Shown piece by piece: positions 24,001-27,000 of a DNA stretch of 64,000 nt. The stretch's first letter is position 1; each line of letters opens with the position of its first letter. Position numbers: made by a program. Source of the stretch: Candidatus Omnitrophota bacterium (GTDB lineage: Bacteria > Omnitrophota > Omnitrophia > Omnitrophales > Aquincolibacteriaceae); contig DAOPYQ010000001.1 in assembly GCA_035352955.1 (NCBI GenBank), forward strand, positions 37,536-101,535, in the 5' to 3' direction.

Positions 24001-27000
24001 GACCCGGGACGGAAAGGCCATCCTGGTCGAACAGTTCCGCCGGCCGGTCCGGGCACAGGTGATCGAATGGCCCGCAGGGCTCGTGAATGATAAGACGCCG
24101 CATGATCCCGAGACGATGGAAACCGCGGCCCGCCGCGAGCTTCTGGAAGAAACGGGTTATGAAGCCGGGACTCTGGAGCTTTTGGTGGAAGGGCCGGTCT
24201 CAAGCGGGTTGAGTGCGGAGATCATTACTTTTTATCGGGCGCTCGAGGTGGTCAAGAAGGGCGCGGGTGGCGGGGATGAGACGGAATCTATCATCGTGCA
24301 TGAAGTCCCGCTTCCGGAAGTCGCCTCCTGGCTGGTTAAGATGGAAAAAAAAGGGTATCTTGTCGACCCGAAAGTTTACGCGGGGTTGTATTTTATAAAA
24401 GCAGGATAGCGGATGAAGGAAGGATGTCGAGCCGGTTTTTCGCCATCCGCCAGCCGTTATCCTTTTTTGAAAGGATTTTGAAATGGCAGACATCACGATC
24501 TATCACAAACCCAGTTGTGCCGGGTGTAAAGAGGCACTGAAGATCTTGAGAGACATGAATGTGGACGTCGATGCCATCGACTTTTTCTCGGTGCCGATCC
24601 CGAAGCCCAAGCTCCGCGAATTGATCGGGAAGATCGGGCTTTCTATCGAAGAGCTGATCCGGAAGAAGGACCAGCTTTACGAGGATCTCCGGCTCGGCGA
24701 GAAGAAACTCACGGAAGGGCAGTGGTTGGATCTGCTCGCGATCTATCCGGATCTCCTTCAACGGCCGATCGTTGAAAAGGCCGAAAAGGCGATCATCGGG
24801 CGTCCGGTCAAGAAGATCAAAGAGTTTTTGGCACCTCCCGTGACGTCTGAGGCGTCCGGGACCGGGGGCGCCGGAGCGCCCGCTGCGGCGGTTTGATCCC
24901 GCGAGCGGCTTTTCGCGGGGCGTGGCGCGTTGAGCTTTGCACGATTTTAGCTCTCCTTGGCTGAAGCTTGATCAGAACAGTGGATGACGAGGGTTGCCCC
25001 AATTTCAACTCCGTTGAAATTGATAAGTATTGAGACTAGAATATTCGCTCCACCCTATTTTAAATGGAGGAACCTATGAACTCGCAAAATGAACATCCGT
25101 TCTCTTATTCCCGGGAAACCGTTTTTTCGAATTTCATGCAGCGCGTTTACCAGTGGATGGCTCTCGGGCTTTCTTTGACGGGTCTGATGGCGTTCGCGAC
25201 GCTCCTGAACGTCGGCCTTCTGAAGTTCCTTCTAAAGGGCGGGATGTGGCTTTTTCTGATCGCGGAAATTGCGCTGGTGTTCTGGCTTTCCGCGAGCATC
25301 CGGCGCATTTCGGCGCGGGCTGCGGTCACGGGATTTTTGGTTTATTCCGCGCTGAACGGTATCACGATCTCGACGATCTTTCTTGCCTATACGACGGCGT
25401 CGGTCTCCTCGACGTTTTTCATCGCGGCCCTGACGTTCGCGGGCGTGAGCGTTTACGGCTGGATGACGAAACAGGACCTCACCTCTGTCGGGAGTTTCTG
25501 TTTCATGGCGCTCTGGGGCGTGATCATCGCGTCGGTCCTGAACTTTTTTTTCCGCGCGCCGGTTTTTTACTGGATCCTCTCGTACTGCGGCGTGGCGGTT
25601 TTTATCGGGCTGACGGCTTATGATACCCAGAGGCTCAAAGCGATCCACCAGAGCACGCCCAACGCGCCCGAGCAGATCGCTATTTACGGCGCGCTGATGC
25701 TTTATCTCGACTTCATCAATATGTTTCTCTGGCTCCTCCAGATCTTCGGCCGCCGCCGGTAAAAAAAGCAGGCACCTTTTTCTGTCCCCAACAAATTTGA
25801 GATTTCAAAAGTGATCGAAGTTAAAGATCTTACAATGCATTACGGTCCGGTGATGGCGCTGGACCACGTTTCGTTCCGGGCCAACCCCGGCGAGATCCTC
25901 GGTCTTCTCGGTCCGAACGGCGCGGGCAAGACTACCGCGATGCGGATCCTGACCACCTACCTTTATCCTTCTTCCGGCACCGCGCAGATCGACGGGTTCG
26001 ATATTATCGAAAACCCGCTCGAGGTACGGAAACGGACCGGATACCTTCCCGAAACCGTGCCGCTTTACGCGGACATGCAGGTCGGGGAATATCTTACCTT
26101 TGTCGGGAAGGCGCGCGGGCTTTCGGGCGCCGGGCTTGCGGAGCGGCTTGATTGGGTGAGGGGAGCCTGCAATCTCAGGCCGGTCTGGAAACATCTTCTT
26201 TCGGAACTTTCCAAGGGGTACGGCCAGCGGGTCGGTCTCGCTCAGGCGTTGATCCATGATCCCAAGGTCCTGATCCTTGACGAACCGACGTCCGGCCTGG
26301 ACCCGATCCAGATCATCGAGATCCGGGCGCTTATGAAAAGCCTCGCGAAAGAAAAAACCGTTATTTTCTCGACGCATATCCTGCAGGAAGTGGAAGCGCT
26401 GGCGGACCGTATCGTGATCATCAATGAAGGGAAGCTCGTGGCGTTCGGTACCAAGGCCGAGCTTGCCCGCCAGAGCGGTTGTCCGGACGGGTCTTTAGAA
26501 GAAATTTTCATCCGGCTTTTGGCGCCGCAGAAGGCGGTGGGCGCATGAAAAAGTCGGGAAAACAAAACAAAAAGGGATCCGTCATCCTGAGCGCGTCCCG
26601 CGTTGCGGGGCAAGCGAAGGATCTCGTTTTAAGATTCTTCGGGTTTTGCCCTCAGAATGACGGTTGGGCTGGGGCGCCGCAGAAGGCGGTGGGCGCATGA
26701 AAAAGGCGAATCTTTTTATCATTTTCTGGCGCGAGATGGCGGCTTATTTCAATTCCGCGATCGCGTACATCTTTCTCGTGATCTTCGCGCTCCTGAACGG
26801 CGGGCTTTTCATGACGCAGTTCTTCGTGGGCGGACGGGTGGACATGCGGCCGTTCTTTTACATGTTGCCGTTCTTTCTGGCGGTCTTCCTCCCGGCGGTC
26901 TCGATGCGGCTTTGGTCGGAGGAGCGGCGCGGGAACACGCAGGAACTGCTCCTGACTTTCCCGATGCGGCCGTACGAACTTGTGCTCGGGAAATTTTTTG

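What the first reader, a model, noticed from the sequence alone, without database searches (positions are those of the whole stretch)
26521..26705. MITE/REP-like palindromic 119-bp insertion with 33-bp flanking direct repeats at an ABC ATPase/permease junction. Translational coupling is preserved through a new 51-codon ORF.
The 33-bp sequence 'ggcgccgcagaaggcggtgggcgcATGAaaaag', which contains the original stop/start overlap, is duplicated. The first copy now terminates the ATPase and starts a 51-codon ORF (26545-26700) that ends '…APQKAVGA*', the same C-terminal residues as the ATPase. The stop of that ORF overlaps the true permease start (ATGA again). The insert itself is a nested imperfect palindrome (GTCATCCTGAG…CTCAGAATGAC with inner GAAGGATCTC/AGATTCTTC arms). 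This is a tidy example of an insertion that retains coupling.
Basis: seen in the sequence. Interest (0 to 1): 0.55.

Follow-up and report, generated by a model that had tools for sequence, protein, structure and literature searches.

The report
Hairpin-repeat insertion splitting overlapping transporter genes
A 119-bp piece of DNA carrying a pair of widespread bacterial hairpin repeats (the kind cut by small GIY-YIG "Ssn" nucleases) landed on the stop/start overlap of two transporter genes in a Candidatus Omnitrophota genome. The event duplicated 33 bp of the target, so both genes stayed intact and a 51-codon bridging reading frame was created. It is a tidy but essentially ordinary example of a known repeat class.

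Summary
An exact 33-bp direct repeat (26521-26553 and 26673-26705) flanks a 119-bp insert. The ATGA stop/start overlap occurs twice, and a 51-codon ORF (26545-26700) links the ABC ATPase to the GldG-type permease.

- **Ancestral state:** thirty-four orthologous junctions from related metagenome contigs have the plain ATGA overlap and no insert.
- **Not an artefact:** the insertion is present in at least four assemblies. A k=31 Logan contig breaks exactly at the last unique 31-mer before the repeat.
- **What the core is:** 26579-26663 is an inverted pair of about 30-45-nt hairpin units (YGTC tag, AT-first stem, C tail). The family occurs in at least 16 phyla and on many viral contigs. It fits the "CGTC-tagged REPs" of Di Nocera 2013.
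- **Gene link:** in six loci from five phyla, a roughly 96-aa GIY-YIG gene sits between two such units, the Ssn/NTS architecture of Chenal 2025. The window element is a gene-less dimer.
- **Not a classical MITE:** about 300 other copies show no target duplication. Here the repeats lie 26 and 10 nt away from the palindrome.

The 33-bp duplication is a one-off by-product of insertion. Preservation of translational coupling is plausible but untested.

The parts
25811..26548 (+). ABC transporter ATPase gene (245 aa). Its last 8 codons plus the stop lie in repeat copy 1.
   Evidence: ORF list. Pfam ABC_tran on the called gene. NCBI name 'ATP-binding cassette domain-containing protein [Candidatus Omnitrophota bacterium]'.
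26521..26553 (.). Direct repeat copy 1 (33 bp). It holds the ATPase C-terminus APQKAVGA, the TGA, and the overlapping ATG that now starts the relay ORF.
   Evidence: The same sequence type forms the single, unduplicated junction in orthologues.
26545..26700 (+). 51-codon relay ORF created by the insertion. It starts on the first ATGA, ends on the second ATGA, and is translated through the hairpin dimer.
   Evidence: Called as a gene in NCBI and JGI assemblies. No Pfam family.
26554..26672 (.). The 119-bp inserted DNA, absent from all orthologous junctions.
26554..26578 (.). A-rich left flank of the insert (TCGGGAAAACAAAACAAAAAGGGAT). It is not part of the repeat family and has no match anywhere searched.
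   Evidence: blastn against 306 loci. Viral-contig scan found nothing.
26579..26663 (.). Palindromic core: an inverted dimer of two CGTC-tagged hairpin units separated by a 5-nt spacer (26626-26630).
   Evidence: Family membership.
26580..26625 (+). Left hairpin unit. Tag CGTC 26580-83. Stem ATCCT 26584-88 pairs with AGGAT 26618-22. GAG/CGA internal loop. Extra inner hairpin GTCCCGC-GTT-GCGGGGC 26595-26611. Tail CTC 26623-25.
   Evidence: DNA fold. Unit regex. Within-arm covariation in the family.
26631..26662 (-). Right hairpin unit, read on the - strand: CGTCATTCTGAGGGCAAAACCCGAAGAATCTT. It is 30 of 31 identical to arms in a gammaproteobacterial MAG, and 29-30 of 31-32 identical in an Omnitrophica MAG and a Gastranaerophilales MAG.
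26664..26672 (.). 9-nt right flank of the insert (TTGGGCTGG), with no match. A JGI gene call starts the permease at TTG 26664 inside it.
26673..26705 (.). Direct repeat copy 2. It supplies the relay ORF's C-terminus and stop, the GAAGG Shine-Dalgarno-like motif, and the conserved permease start MKK.
26697..29225 (+). Fused ABC-2 permease / GldG-type auxiliary protein (842 aa). It is followed by a DUF4340 gene (29266-30333).
   Evidence: (Pfam ABC2_membrane, DUF7088, ABC_transp_aux).

Best explanation
The core of the insert is a gene-less inverted dimer of CGTC-tagged hairpin repeats. This is the class whose gene-carrying form is 'hairpin unit - small GIY-YIG (Ssn-type) nuclease gene - inverted hairpin unit'.

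In an ancestor of this Candidatus Omnitrophota population, one such dimer was copied into the 4-nt ATGA stop/start overlap of an ABC ATPase and its GldG-type permease. About 34 nt of unrelated flanking or filler DNA came with it.

The same event duplicated 33 bp of the target. The most likely routes are fill-in of a staggered break, or a replication template switch out to a donor and back. It was not a transposase making a fixed target-site duplication.

Because the duplicated segment spans the overlap, copy 1 still ends the ATPase. Copy 2 still provides the ribosome-binding region and start of the permease.

The insert is open in the one frame that matters, and its length puts the second TGA in frame. 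Ribosomes that finish the ATPase can therefore restart on a 51-codon relay ORF, melt the hairpin, stop on the second ATGA and restart on the permease.

The relay peptide and the hairpin probably have no function of their own. This version persisted because it does not break the operon.

Shown:
- The anatomy of the locus.
- The derived state relative to orthologues.
- Family membership of the core.
- The link between this family and GIY-YIG genes.
- The absence of target duplications elsewhere in the family.

Inferred:
- The mechanism of the duplication.
- That coupling is retained.
- That the element is neutral.
For: **Anatomy:**

**Empty site:** 34 orthologous junctions (59-85% aa identity) all have ...[13 protein letters not shown]... 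with no insert.

**Real, fixed feature**
- Identical in JGI 3300025867 (L004).
- One SNP in 7,289 bp in NCBI GCA_035403665.1.
- The 51-aa ORF is annotated in two NCBI MAGs. The 853-aa permease call, which starts inside the insert, is on 396-kb JGI contigs.
- The Logan contig L002 ends at 26550, the last unique 31-mer before the repeat.

**Family**
- The outer-arm pattern is found in 29 viral contigs and at least 120 GTDB genomes from about 16 phyla.
- The sister variant GTCATTGCGAG is found in at least 120 viral contigs.

**The unit hairpin is the conserved entity**
- Outer ATTCT/ATCCT/ATTGC pairs with inner AGAAT/AGGAT/GCAAT in 487 of 497 arms.
- 99.3% of cells are paired versus 86.5% in shuffles, with 3 compensatory pairs.
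- The states of the two arms are independent of each other.
- The base before GTC is a pyrimidine in 96% of arms, and a C follows the stem in at least 90%.

**Gene-carrying form:** GIY-YIG genes of 95-103 aa (PF01541) lie between an upstream unit and a downstream inverted unit in Omnitrophota (L063, L312), Flavobacterium (L290/L322), Thermodesulfovibrio (L315), Elusimicrobiales (L317) and Limnohabitans (L321).

**Literature:** CGTC-tagged REPs have no known transposase (PMC3733652). Ssn GIY-YIG nucleases bind and cut such hairpins as ssDNA, and their genes are flanked by them (PMC11893778).

**No flanking duplications elsewhere:**

**Frame:** only 1 of the insert's 6 frames is open, and 14% of shuffles keep the frame open.
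Against: - No donor copy of the 119 bp, or of its two odd flanks, was found. The rest of the genome could not be scanned.
- No second example of such a duplication exists among about 300 copies, so the mechanism rests on one event.
- No GIY-YIG gene lies in the roughly 73 kb of this genome that could be read.
- The published degenerate SRM search pattern does not match these units.
- Whether these GIY-YIG proteins fall in the cd10448 (Ssn) clade could not be tested.
- Coupling, translation of the relay ORF and neutrality are untested. The joint chance of 'right length class and open frame' is only about 5%, so either luck or selection is possible.
Confidence: 0.6

Rival explanations
1. Classical MITE. 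A DDE-type transposase moved a non-autonomous element with terminal inverted repeats and made a 33-bp target-site duplication.
For: There are inverted arms and flanking direct repeats of target DNA. The site is clean and empty in relatives. From my own knowledge, a few IS groups (IS1634, IS1549) make long, variable duplications.
Against: - The repeats do not abut the inverted repeats: 26 nt on the left and 11 nt on the right intervene, and these have no family counterpart.
- There is no excess of 2-6-bp duplications next to 298 copies.
- There are no long exact or imperfect flanking repeats in about 300 and 109 clean-flank copies respectively. The apparent ones are tandem arrays or nested composites.
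- Gene-carrying relatives hold a GIY-YIG gene, and clustering of ORFs near copies gave no recurrent transposase-like cluster, although the cluster representatives were not scanned against Pfam.
Confidence: 0.1
2. Scar of an integrative element. A phage or island integrated by site-specific recombination at a 33-bp att core spanning the gene junction. Almost all of it was later deleted, leaving attL - 119 bp - attR.
For: The A-B-A topology, with exact identity covering the 3' end of a gene, is what att duplications look like. Selection to restore the operon would favour deletion down to a short, open-frame remnant.
Against: - It needs at least two events.
- Neither the 28-nt core of the repeat nor the insert's left flank occurs on any IMG/VR contig.
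- No integrase or island remnant is nearby.
- The insert's middle is a complete, undamaged hairpin dimer typical of Omnitrophota copies, not a random deletion product.
Confidence: 0.07
3. Selected regulatory insertion. The stable intercistronic hairpin sets the ATPase:permease ratio, as the first REPs found in the his and mal transporter operons do. Alternatively, the 51-aa peptide has a function.
For: - The hairpin is very stable in the mRNA (-43.8 kcal/mol, z -5.6).
- No U-tract follows it on the + strand, so it should not terminate transcription.
- The open frame plus the right length class has about a 5% chance.
- The insertion is fixed in all assemblies seen.
Against: - It is present in one lineage only, and all 34 relatives do without it.
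- The peptide has no family and is simply the usual read-through of this repeat (VILS...AKDL......PQND).
- There is no sequence variation with which to test constraint. Fixation in one population is also expected for a neutral change.
Confidence: 0.1
4. Assembly artefact. A de Bruijn graph loop or a chimeric join created the A-B-A structure.
For: A 33-bp repeat is longer than small k-mers. One Logan contig does break at the repeat.
Against: - The same structure appears in independent assemblies from NCBI (two MAGs), JGI (39-kb and 396-kb contigs) and the window itself, with one SNP between them.
- The Logan break at 26550 is exactly what a true two-context 31-mer gives, so both contexts of the repeat exist in those reads.
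- B joined to A on both sides cannot arise without A-B-A existing somewhere.
Confidence: 0.02

Closest known systems
CGTC-tagged REP superfamily (Di Nocera, De Gregorio & Rocco 2013, BMC Genomics 14:522; includes Neisseria dRS3 and Rickettsia RPE-4/RPE-6)
   Same: - An unpaired CGTC/TGTC tag sits 5' of a hairpin whose stem begins A-T, T-A.
- There is a short C-rich tail.
- Units mostly occur as inverted dimers with variable spacers.
- The family occurs in many phyla, with occasional copies inside reading frames and no associated transposase.
- All of these features were seen here.
   Different: - The paper describes continuous 8-9-bp stems and 4-5-nt loops, in 5 phyla.
- Here the stem is 5 bp + a tandem G.A/A.G internal loop + 2-7 bp, capped by a GNA triloop or an extra hairpin.
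- The family was found in about 16 phyla and on viral contigs.
- The consensus figure of the paper could not be read, so assignment to CGTC-1 to -4 is open.
NTS / Ssn-related motifs and SsnA GIY-YIG ssDNA nucleases (Chenal et al. 2025, Nat Commun 16:2388)
   Same: - A hairpin with GTC just upstream (needed for cleavage) and C just downstream (needed for binding).
- A small single-domain GIY-YIG gene flanked by its own hairpins in an IS-like arrangement.
- Hundreds of gene-less copies elsewhere.
- This architecture was found for the present family in six loci.
- Catalytic residues Y8/Y19/E66 line up with SsnA Y6/Y17/E64, shifted by two.
   Different: - The published SRM search pattern does not match these units.
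- No enzyme of this sub-family has been tested.
- Membership of the proteins in cd10448 was not testable here.
- The paper does not describe how the hairpins spread, nor any target duplication.
REPINs and RAYT transposases (Bertels & Rainey 2011; Nunvar 2010; Ton-Hoang 2012)
   Same: - Two hairpin repeats in inverted orientation form the mobile or non-autonomous unit.
- A single-copy gene for an ssDNA-hairpin-specific enzyme is flanked by the repeats.
- There is no target-site duplication.
   Different: - The tag is GTAG/GTGG, and the enzyme is an HUH-Y1 transposase, not GIY-YIG.
- REPIN families are lineage-specific and vertically inherited.
- The present unit sequence is nearly the same across phyla.
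Rickettsia palindromic elements inserted in frame in genes (Ogata et al. 2000; cited in PMC3733652)
   Same: A palindromic repeat of the CGTC class is translated as part of a reading frame without destroying the host genes.
   Different: Here the repeat is not inside a protein. It forms a separate 51-codon ORF between two genes, and the event duplicated 33 bp of target.
Intercistronic REPs of the his and mal ABC-transporter operons (Higgins et al. 1982; Newbury et al. 1987; from my own knowledge)
   Same: A stable palindromic repeat lies between cistrons of an ABC transporter operon, where it could affect relative mRNA stability.
   Different: Those REPs lie in untranslated spacers and are GTAG-type. 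Here the hairpin is inside a translated relay ORF and no effect has been measured.

Membership tests
CGTC-tagged REP superfamily | Unpaired terminal tag CGTC (variants TGTC, CCTC) at one end of the hairpin | tested here: met
   Both window units carry CGTC (26580-83 on +, 26662-59 on -). In 566 family arms the base before GTC is T in 342, C in 199, A in 13 and G in 12.
CGTC-tagged REP superfamily | Stem of 8-9 bp whose first two pairs are A-T and T-A | tested here: inconclusive
   The stem starts AT...AT in all copies. However, it is 5 Watson-Crick pairs, then G.A/A.G, then 2-7 pairs, not a continuous 8-9 bp. The paper's consensus figure could not be read.
CGTC-tagged REP superfamily | Loop of 4-5 nt | tested here: inconclusive
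   Minimal family units have C-GNA-G. The window units carry longer inserts: a 17-nt inner hairpin on the left and GGG-CAAAA-CCC on the right.
CGTC-tagged REP superfamily | Short unpaired 3' tail, consensus CCA | tested here: met
   Family tails are CTC in 156, CCA in 129, CTG in 49, CTT in 41. The window has CTC and CTT.
CGTC-tagged REP superfamily | Units mostly paired as inverted dimers with variable spacer; no adjacent transposase | tested here: met
   The distance between the conserved inner motifs is 2-37 nt in 121 dimers. No recurrent transposase-like cluster was seen among ORF clusters of 149 loci.
Ssn-related motif (SRM/NTS) | Match to the published search pattern HGTCWYN(0-2)YYVSBRHN(0-5)WNVSBRGN(0-2)RNCYNB | tested here: not met
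   Neither window unit matches, nor do the canonical TCT, CCT or TGC units. NTS and the L154 dimer do match.
Ssn-related motif (SRM/NTS) | GTC directly 5' of the palindrome and C directly 3' of it (the nucleotides critical for cleavage and binding) | tested here: met
   GTC was fixed by the search pattern, but the flanking Y and the downstream C were free. C is present in at least 90% of 86 units and in both window units. Criticality is taken from PMC11893778.
Ssn-related motif (SRM/NTS) | A small single-domain GIY-YIG gene flanked by the motif on both sides | tested here: met
   This was tested for the family. L063, L290/L322, L312, L315, L317 and L321 each have a 95-103-aa PF01541 gene between an upstream unit and a downstream inverted unit, or surrounded by dimers. 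It could not be tested for the window's own genome: there is no GIY-YIG gene in about 73 kb.
Ssn-related motif (SRM/NTS) | Bound and cut only as single-stranded DNA, on one strand, just upstream of the hairpin | not testable with these tools
   This needs purified protein and oligonucleotides. Indirect support comes from the near absence of G.T pairs (2 of 602 cells) and from GNA triloops, both of which fit a DNA-level hairpin.
Ssn nuclease family (cd10448) | Protein assigned to CDD cd10448 / the monophyletic Ssn clade | not testable with these tools
   Only Pfam GIY-YIG (E 4e-18 and 1e-14) and a weak PDB match to UPF0213 1zg2 could be obtained. At least 7,991 homologues have E <= 1e-8.
MITE (DDE-transposon derived) | Target-site duplication of fixed short length directly abutting the terminal inverted repeats | tested here: not met
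   In the window, the repeats lie 26 and 11 nt from the outer GTCAT / ATGAC motifs. In the family, observed counts equal controls for k = 2-6, and there are no long duplications.
MITE (DDE-transposon derived) | A related autonomous IS that shares the terminal repeats and encodes a transposase | tested here: not met
   The gene-carrying form encodes a GIY-YIG nuclease.
REPIN / RAYT system | GTAG or GTGG tag 5' of the hairpin and an associated HUH-Y1 (RAYT) gene | tested here: not met
   The tag is YGTC. The adjacent genes are GIY-YIG. Rfam has no family for any copy.

The most novel reading that the evidence does not exclude
This locus may be a rare, cleanly bounded fossil of a mobilisation event of an Ssn-type (CGTC) hairpin dimer. 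How this repeat class spreads is unknown. The 33-bp target duplication, together with co-transferred non-family flanks, would then show that these repeats spread by a nick-initiated, replication- or repair-coupled copy process (staggered nicks or template switching at ssDNA) rather than by transposase cut-and-paste. It would also show that only versions which rebuild the stop/start overlap through a relay ORF survive inside coupled operons.
Probability: 0.15. Interest if true: 0.6.

Novelty: new member of a known kind. Interest (0 to 1): 0.4.

Why it matters
**For annotation.** The 51-aa 'hypothetical protein' (PLL75_08070) and the many VILS..AKDL / ..RFAQND-type peptides in MAGs are read-throughs of one hairpin repeat class, not genes.

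**For the biology of repeats.** The locus gives an insertion of a CGTC/Ssn-type hairpin dimer with a well-defined empty site, which is uncommon. It shows that such an insertion can sit on a translationally coupled gene overlap without killing the operon.

The side results may be more useful than the locus itself:
- The GTCATYCTGAG / GTCATTGCGAG sub-family is pan-bacterial and abundant on viral contigs.
- It escapes the published SRM search pattern.
- It occurs both as gene-less dimers and as dimers whose spacer holds a GIY-YIG gene.

These results extend the Ssn/hairpin association to Omnitrophota, Elusimicrobia, Nitrospirota and Bacteroidota. They also offer candidate enzyme/site pairs for the ssDNA-cutting tools proposed in 2025.

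Tried and rejected
- **Rfam.** I ran gathering thresholds on the whole window, a permissive scan of 26450-26780, and seven loci rich in canonical copies. No family covers these hairpins. The weak RAGATH-32 and telomerase hits (E about 7) are noise.
- **Literature by sequence string.** I searched GTCATCCTGAG, CTGAGCGAAGCGAAG, VILSEAKDL, RFARND and similar. The hits were only primers and unrelated sequences. The relevant papers were found by keyword instead.
- **Other copies in the window.** Near-matches at 29284 and 54032 lie inside genes (one in rpoC) and are chance.
- **Long flanking repeats in other copies.** Every apparent case was a tandem array (L015, L024, L303, period 103) or a nested composite repeat (L057). 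None was a target duplication. An imperfect-repeat test was also negative (p = 0.12).
- **Possible 13-of-16 flanking repeat around the L154 dimer.** This was judged too weak in AT-rich DNA.
- **Recurrent neighbour genes.** All-against-all clustering of 4,438 ORFs gave clusters that looked like phage structural proteins and generic families; I did not identify them formally. The GIY-YIG link came only from a motif search.
- **att-site idea.** The 28-nt repeat core and the insert's left flank are absent from IMG/VR.
- **Minus-strand terminator idea** (hairpin followed by TTTTTGTTTTGTTTT). The simple scan did not flag it, and I kept it only as a remark.
- **Viral-contig search for GIY-YIG relatives.** It returned one locus that duplicates L290.
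- **Extending the genome past the window.** The extension gave 9 kb of ribosomal-protein operon with no copies.
- **CRISPR-like off-target integration** (repeat duplication of about 33 bp). I considered this from memory and set it aside, because the insert is 119 bp and no array is present.
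Full report
**1. The observation**

The 33-mer GGCGCCGCAGAAGGCGGTGGGCGCATGAAAAAG occurs at 26521-26553 and again at 26673-26705. It extends to 36 bp with one mismatch, and the spacing is 152. Between the copies lie 119 bp (26554-26672).

- The ATPase ORF (25811-26548) ends ...APQKAVGA-TGA inside copy 1.
- The ATG overlapping that TGA opens a 51-codon ORF (26545-26700). This ORF ends with the same eight residues inside copy 2.
- The TGA of that ORF overlaps the ATG (26697) of the 842-aa permease.
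- The middle of the insert is a nested palindrome with outer arms CCGTCATCCTGAG / CTCAGAATGACGG and inner arms CGAAGGATCT / AGATTCTTCG.
- The 89-nt core folds far better than shuffled sequence: RNA -43.8 kcal/mol with z -5.6, and DNA z about -5 on either strand.

**2. The organism and the genes**

Exact-sequence look-ups name the proteins as coming from Candidatus Omnitrophota MAGs. The genes are an ABC ATPase, a fused ABC-2 permease/GldG-type protein and a DUF4340 protein.

**3. The insertion is derived and real**

I fetched 37 metagenome loci that encode relatives of the permease N-terminus, at 59-85% identity. In all 34 that include the junction, the ATPase ends ...Q(K)xVxA and overlaps the permease start by ATGA (in most) or sits directly against it. 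None has an insert. Several junctions are nearly identical to the repeat, for example L158 cagaaggtgagcgcATGAaaaaag. So the 33-mer is the ancestral junction, and it has been duplicated around foreign DNA.

The structure is not an assembly artefact:
- It is identical in a JGI contig (L004).
- It differs by one SNP in 7,289 bp in an NCBI MAG (L001).
- The 51-aa ORF is annotated in two NCBI MAGs.
- A JGI gene call that starts at TTG 26664, inside the insert, exists on 396-kb contigs.
- A Logan contig of SRR4236661 stops at 26550. From my knowledge, Logan assembles at k = 31. Position 26550 is the end of the last 31-mer that is unique before the 33-bp repeat, so the stop is what a true repeat with two left contexts gives.

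**4. What the palindrome is**

There is only one copy in the window. About 270 kb made up of the window, re-fetched copies of the same locus and orthologous loci of related genomes held no other copy of this type. A further 9 kb of the same genome also held none.

A scan for GTCATYCTGAG-N35-65-CTCAGRATGAC found many more:
- 29 viral contigs.

By record titles, these genomes come from Bacteroidota, Chloroflexota, Acidobacteriota, Gemmatimonadota, Planctomycetota, Verrucomicrobiota, Omnitrophota, Patescibacteria, Bacillota, Cyanobacteriota, Nitrospirota, Nitrospinota, Armatimonadota, Synergistota, Desulfobacterota and Pseudomonadota. The sister variant GTCATTGCGAG...CTCGCAATGAC hit at least 120 viral contigs.

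Omnitrophota copies (L053, L063, L094) share the window element's peculiarities: a GC-rich inner hairpin in one arm and a similar central spacer. The window's right arm is 30 of 31 identical to arms in a gammaproteobacterial MAG.

**5. Anatomy of the family**

Each arm is itself a hairpin unit. The unit reads YGTC | AT-NNN | GAG | C-GNA-G (or a longer inner hairpin) | CGA | N'N'N'-AT | C-tail.

- The variable triplet on the 5' side (TCT, CCT or TGC) is matched by its complement on the 3' side of the same arm in 487 of 497 arms.
- The two arms of a dimer take their states independently. This leaves C.A mismatches across arms in 30 of 121 dimers.
- On an 86-unit alignment, 99.3% of cells pair, against 86.5% in shuffles. 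Three pairs show compensatory change, and only 2 of 602 cells are G.T.
- One caveat applies: two of the three covarying columns were partly fixed by my selection regex. The count is free of that.

The conserved entity is therefore the 26-45-nt unit, not the long hairpin. The lack of wobble pairs and the GNA triloops point to DNA rather than RNA. Dimers also occur as tandem arrays (L015, L024, L303).

**6. Comparison with known families**

Rfam has nothing for these hairpins.

The description of 'CGTC-tagged REPs' fits. That description covers the tag CGTC/TGTC, a stem beginning AT, a short tail, mostly inverted dimers, several phyla, intragenic cases such as Rickettsia RPEs, and no transposase (PMC3733652). 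The exception is that the stem here is interrupted by tandem G.A pairs.

Chenal et al. 2025 (PMC11893778) showed three things:
- The Neisseria member (NTS, which includes dRS3) and related 'SRM' hairpins are bound and cut, as ssDNA only, by small GIY-YIG nucleases (Ssn).
- The ssn genes are flanked by their hairpins in an IS-like way.
- The upstream GTC is critical for cleavage and the C after the stem is critical for binding.

Their degenerate SRM pattern does not match the present units. By that test the family is not a member.

The functional architecture is nevertheless the same:
- A motif search found two GIY-YIG genes in 2.5 Mb of loci. Both were within 50 nt of a copy.
- Both are PF01541 and belong to a family of at least 7,991 proteins.
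- In the loci of five further homologues, the gene lies between an upstream unit and a downstream inverted unit of this family. This holds for Omnitrophica, Thermodesulfovibrio, Elusimicrobiales, Limnohabitans and Flavobacterium (the last being the same element as one of the first two). More dimers lie around the gene.
- In L063 the layout is unit 4057-4092, gene 4105-4395, and inverted unit starting at the stop codon.

The window element is thus the gene-less form of such a cassette.

**7. The 33-bp duplication**

The duplication is not a family trait.
- Among about 300 copies, the longest flanking exact repeats all turned out to be neighbouring family copies or array spacers.
- There is no excess of 2-6-bp duplications next to the dimers.
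- An imperfect-repeat test on 109 clean-flank copies equals its controls. The maximum score is 12, against 33.5 for the window.

The duplicated segments also do not touch the palindrome. An A-rich 25 nt on the left and 9 nt on the right intervene, and these match nothing in any locus or in IMG/VR.

I therefore read the event as a one-off. A fragment containing the dimer was copied or captured into a break or stalled fork at the junction, and 33 nt of target was filled in on both sides. The mechanism is inferred, not shown.

An att-scar origin is possible but needs more steps, and the repeat core is absent from viral contigs.

**8. Consequences**

The duplicated block spans the overlap, so both genes are intact. 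The GAAGG motif 10 nt upstream of each ATG is also duplicated.

- Of the six frames of the insert, only the one in use is open. The inverted insert would stop after nine codons.
- 14% of shuffles keep the frame open.
- Only one length class in three puts the second TGA in frame.
- The joint chance is about 5%. This is suggestive of a filter for continued translational coupling, but from one event it is no more than that.
- On the + strand the hairpin is not followed by a U-tract, so it should not terminate the operon.
- The peptide has no family. It is the usual translation of this repeat.

**9. Verdict**

The 'MITE with target-site duplication' half is not supported. The element is a new member of a known kind. 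The locus is of modest interest as a clean insertion footprint for a repeat class whose mode of spread is unknown.

Noticed in passing
window 32267-32938: Two 86-nt AT-rich inverted repeats (90% complementary) bracket exactly one small gene, a 163-aa TPR protein at 32361-32852. It lies between a metallo-beta-lactamase-fold gene and a superoxide dismutase gene. It looks like a cassette or an invertible or mobile segment.
   Followed up: partly
window 7271-7814 and 16375-16918: Within a span of about 545 bp that recurs 9,104 bp away, three stretches totalling 373 nt are 94-100% identical (300 nt at 94%, plus 36- and 37-nt stretches at 97-100%). The copies lie inside ORFs 7156-8247 and 16371-17351, so this is a recent partial gene duplication or gene conversion.
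   Followed up: no
window 455-760: 21-nt and 63-nt tandem repeats encode an A/E/Q/K-rich repetitive stretch inside ORF 28-1101.
   Followed up: no
L154 5046-5105: A relative of the window organism carries a classical NTS-like dimer, TGTCATTCCCGCGAAAGCGGGAATCCAG plus an inverted partner. It lies in the spacer after the orthologous permease and matches the published SRM pattern. So two different sub-types of the hairpin class occur in this Omnitrophota lineage.
   Followed up: partly
L015 8546-8969; L024 9003-9429; L303 9657-9934: Tandem arrays of 3-5 hairpin dimers with short spacers that recur between copies (start-to-start spacing about 87, 78-156 and 103 bp). Their regular spacing recalls BIME clusters or CRISPR arrays.
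   Followed up: partly
L191-L310 (IMG/VR contigs), e.g. L226, L237, L249: The GTCATTGCGAG variant is very common on contigs classed as viral, often with several copies per contig. If the cognate GIY-YIG enzymes restrict ssDNA carrying the hairpin, as shown for Neisseria transformation, its abundance on phage-like DNA needs explaining.
   Followed up: no
window 26521-26545 (and 26673-26697): The duplicated target itself can form a GC hairpin (GCGCC - 13 nt - GGCGC), and GGCGCC is palindromic. A structured target might have favoured the break or template switch (pairs I11/I12).
   Followed up: no
window 38869-38900 (- strand): This is the single match in the 64 kb to the published SRM degenerate pattern (CGTCACGTTCCGCGACGGGACCGCGGGCCTGG). 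It is probably a chance match in GC-rich DNA.
   Followed up: no
L315 835-1050 (Thermodesulfovibrio hydrogeniphilus): Next to the GIY-YIG gene, units with the tag and stem GTCACTGCGAG...GAAGCAGTC alternate with GTCATTGCGAG...GAAGCAATC units. This is a further compensatory stem variant (AC..GT instead of AT..AT) in the first stem pairs.
   Followed up: no
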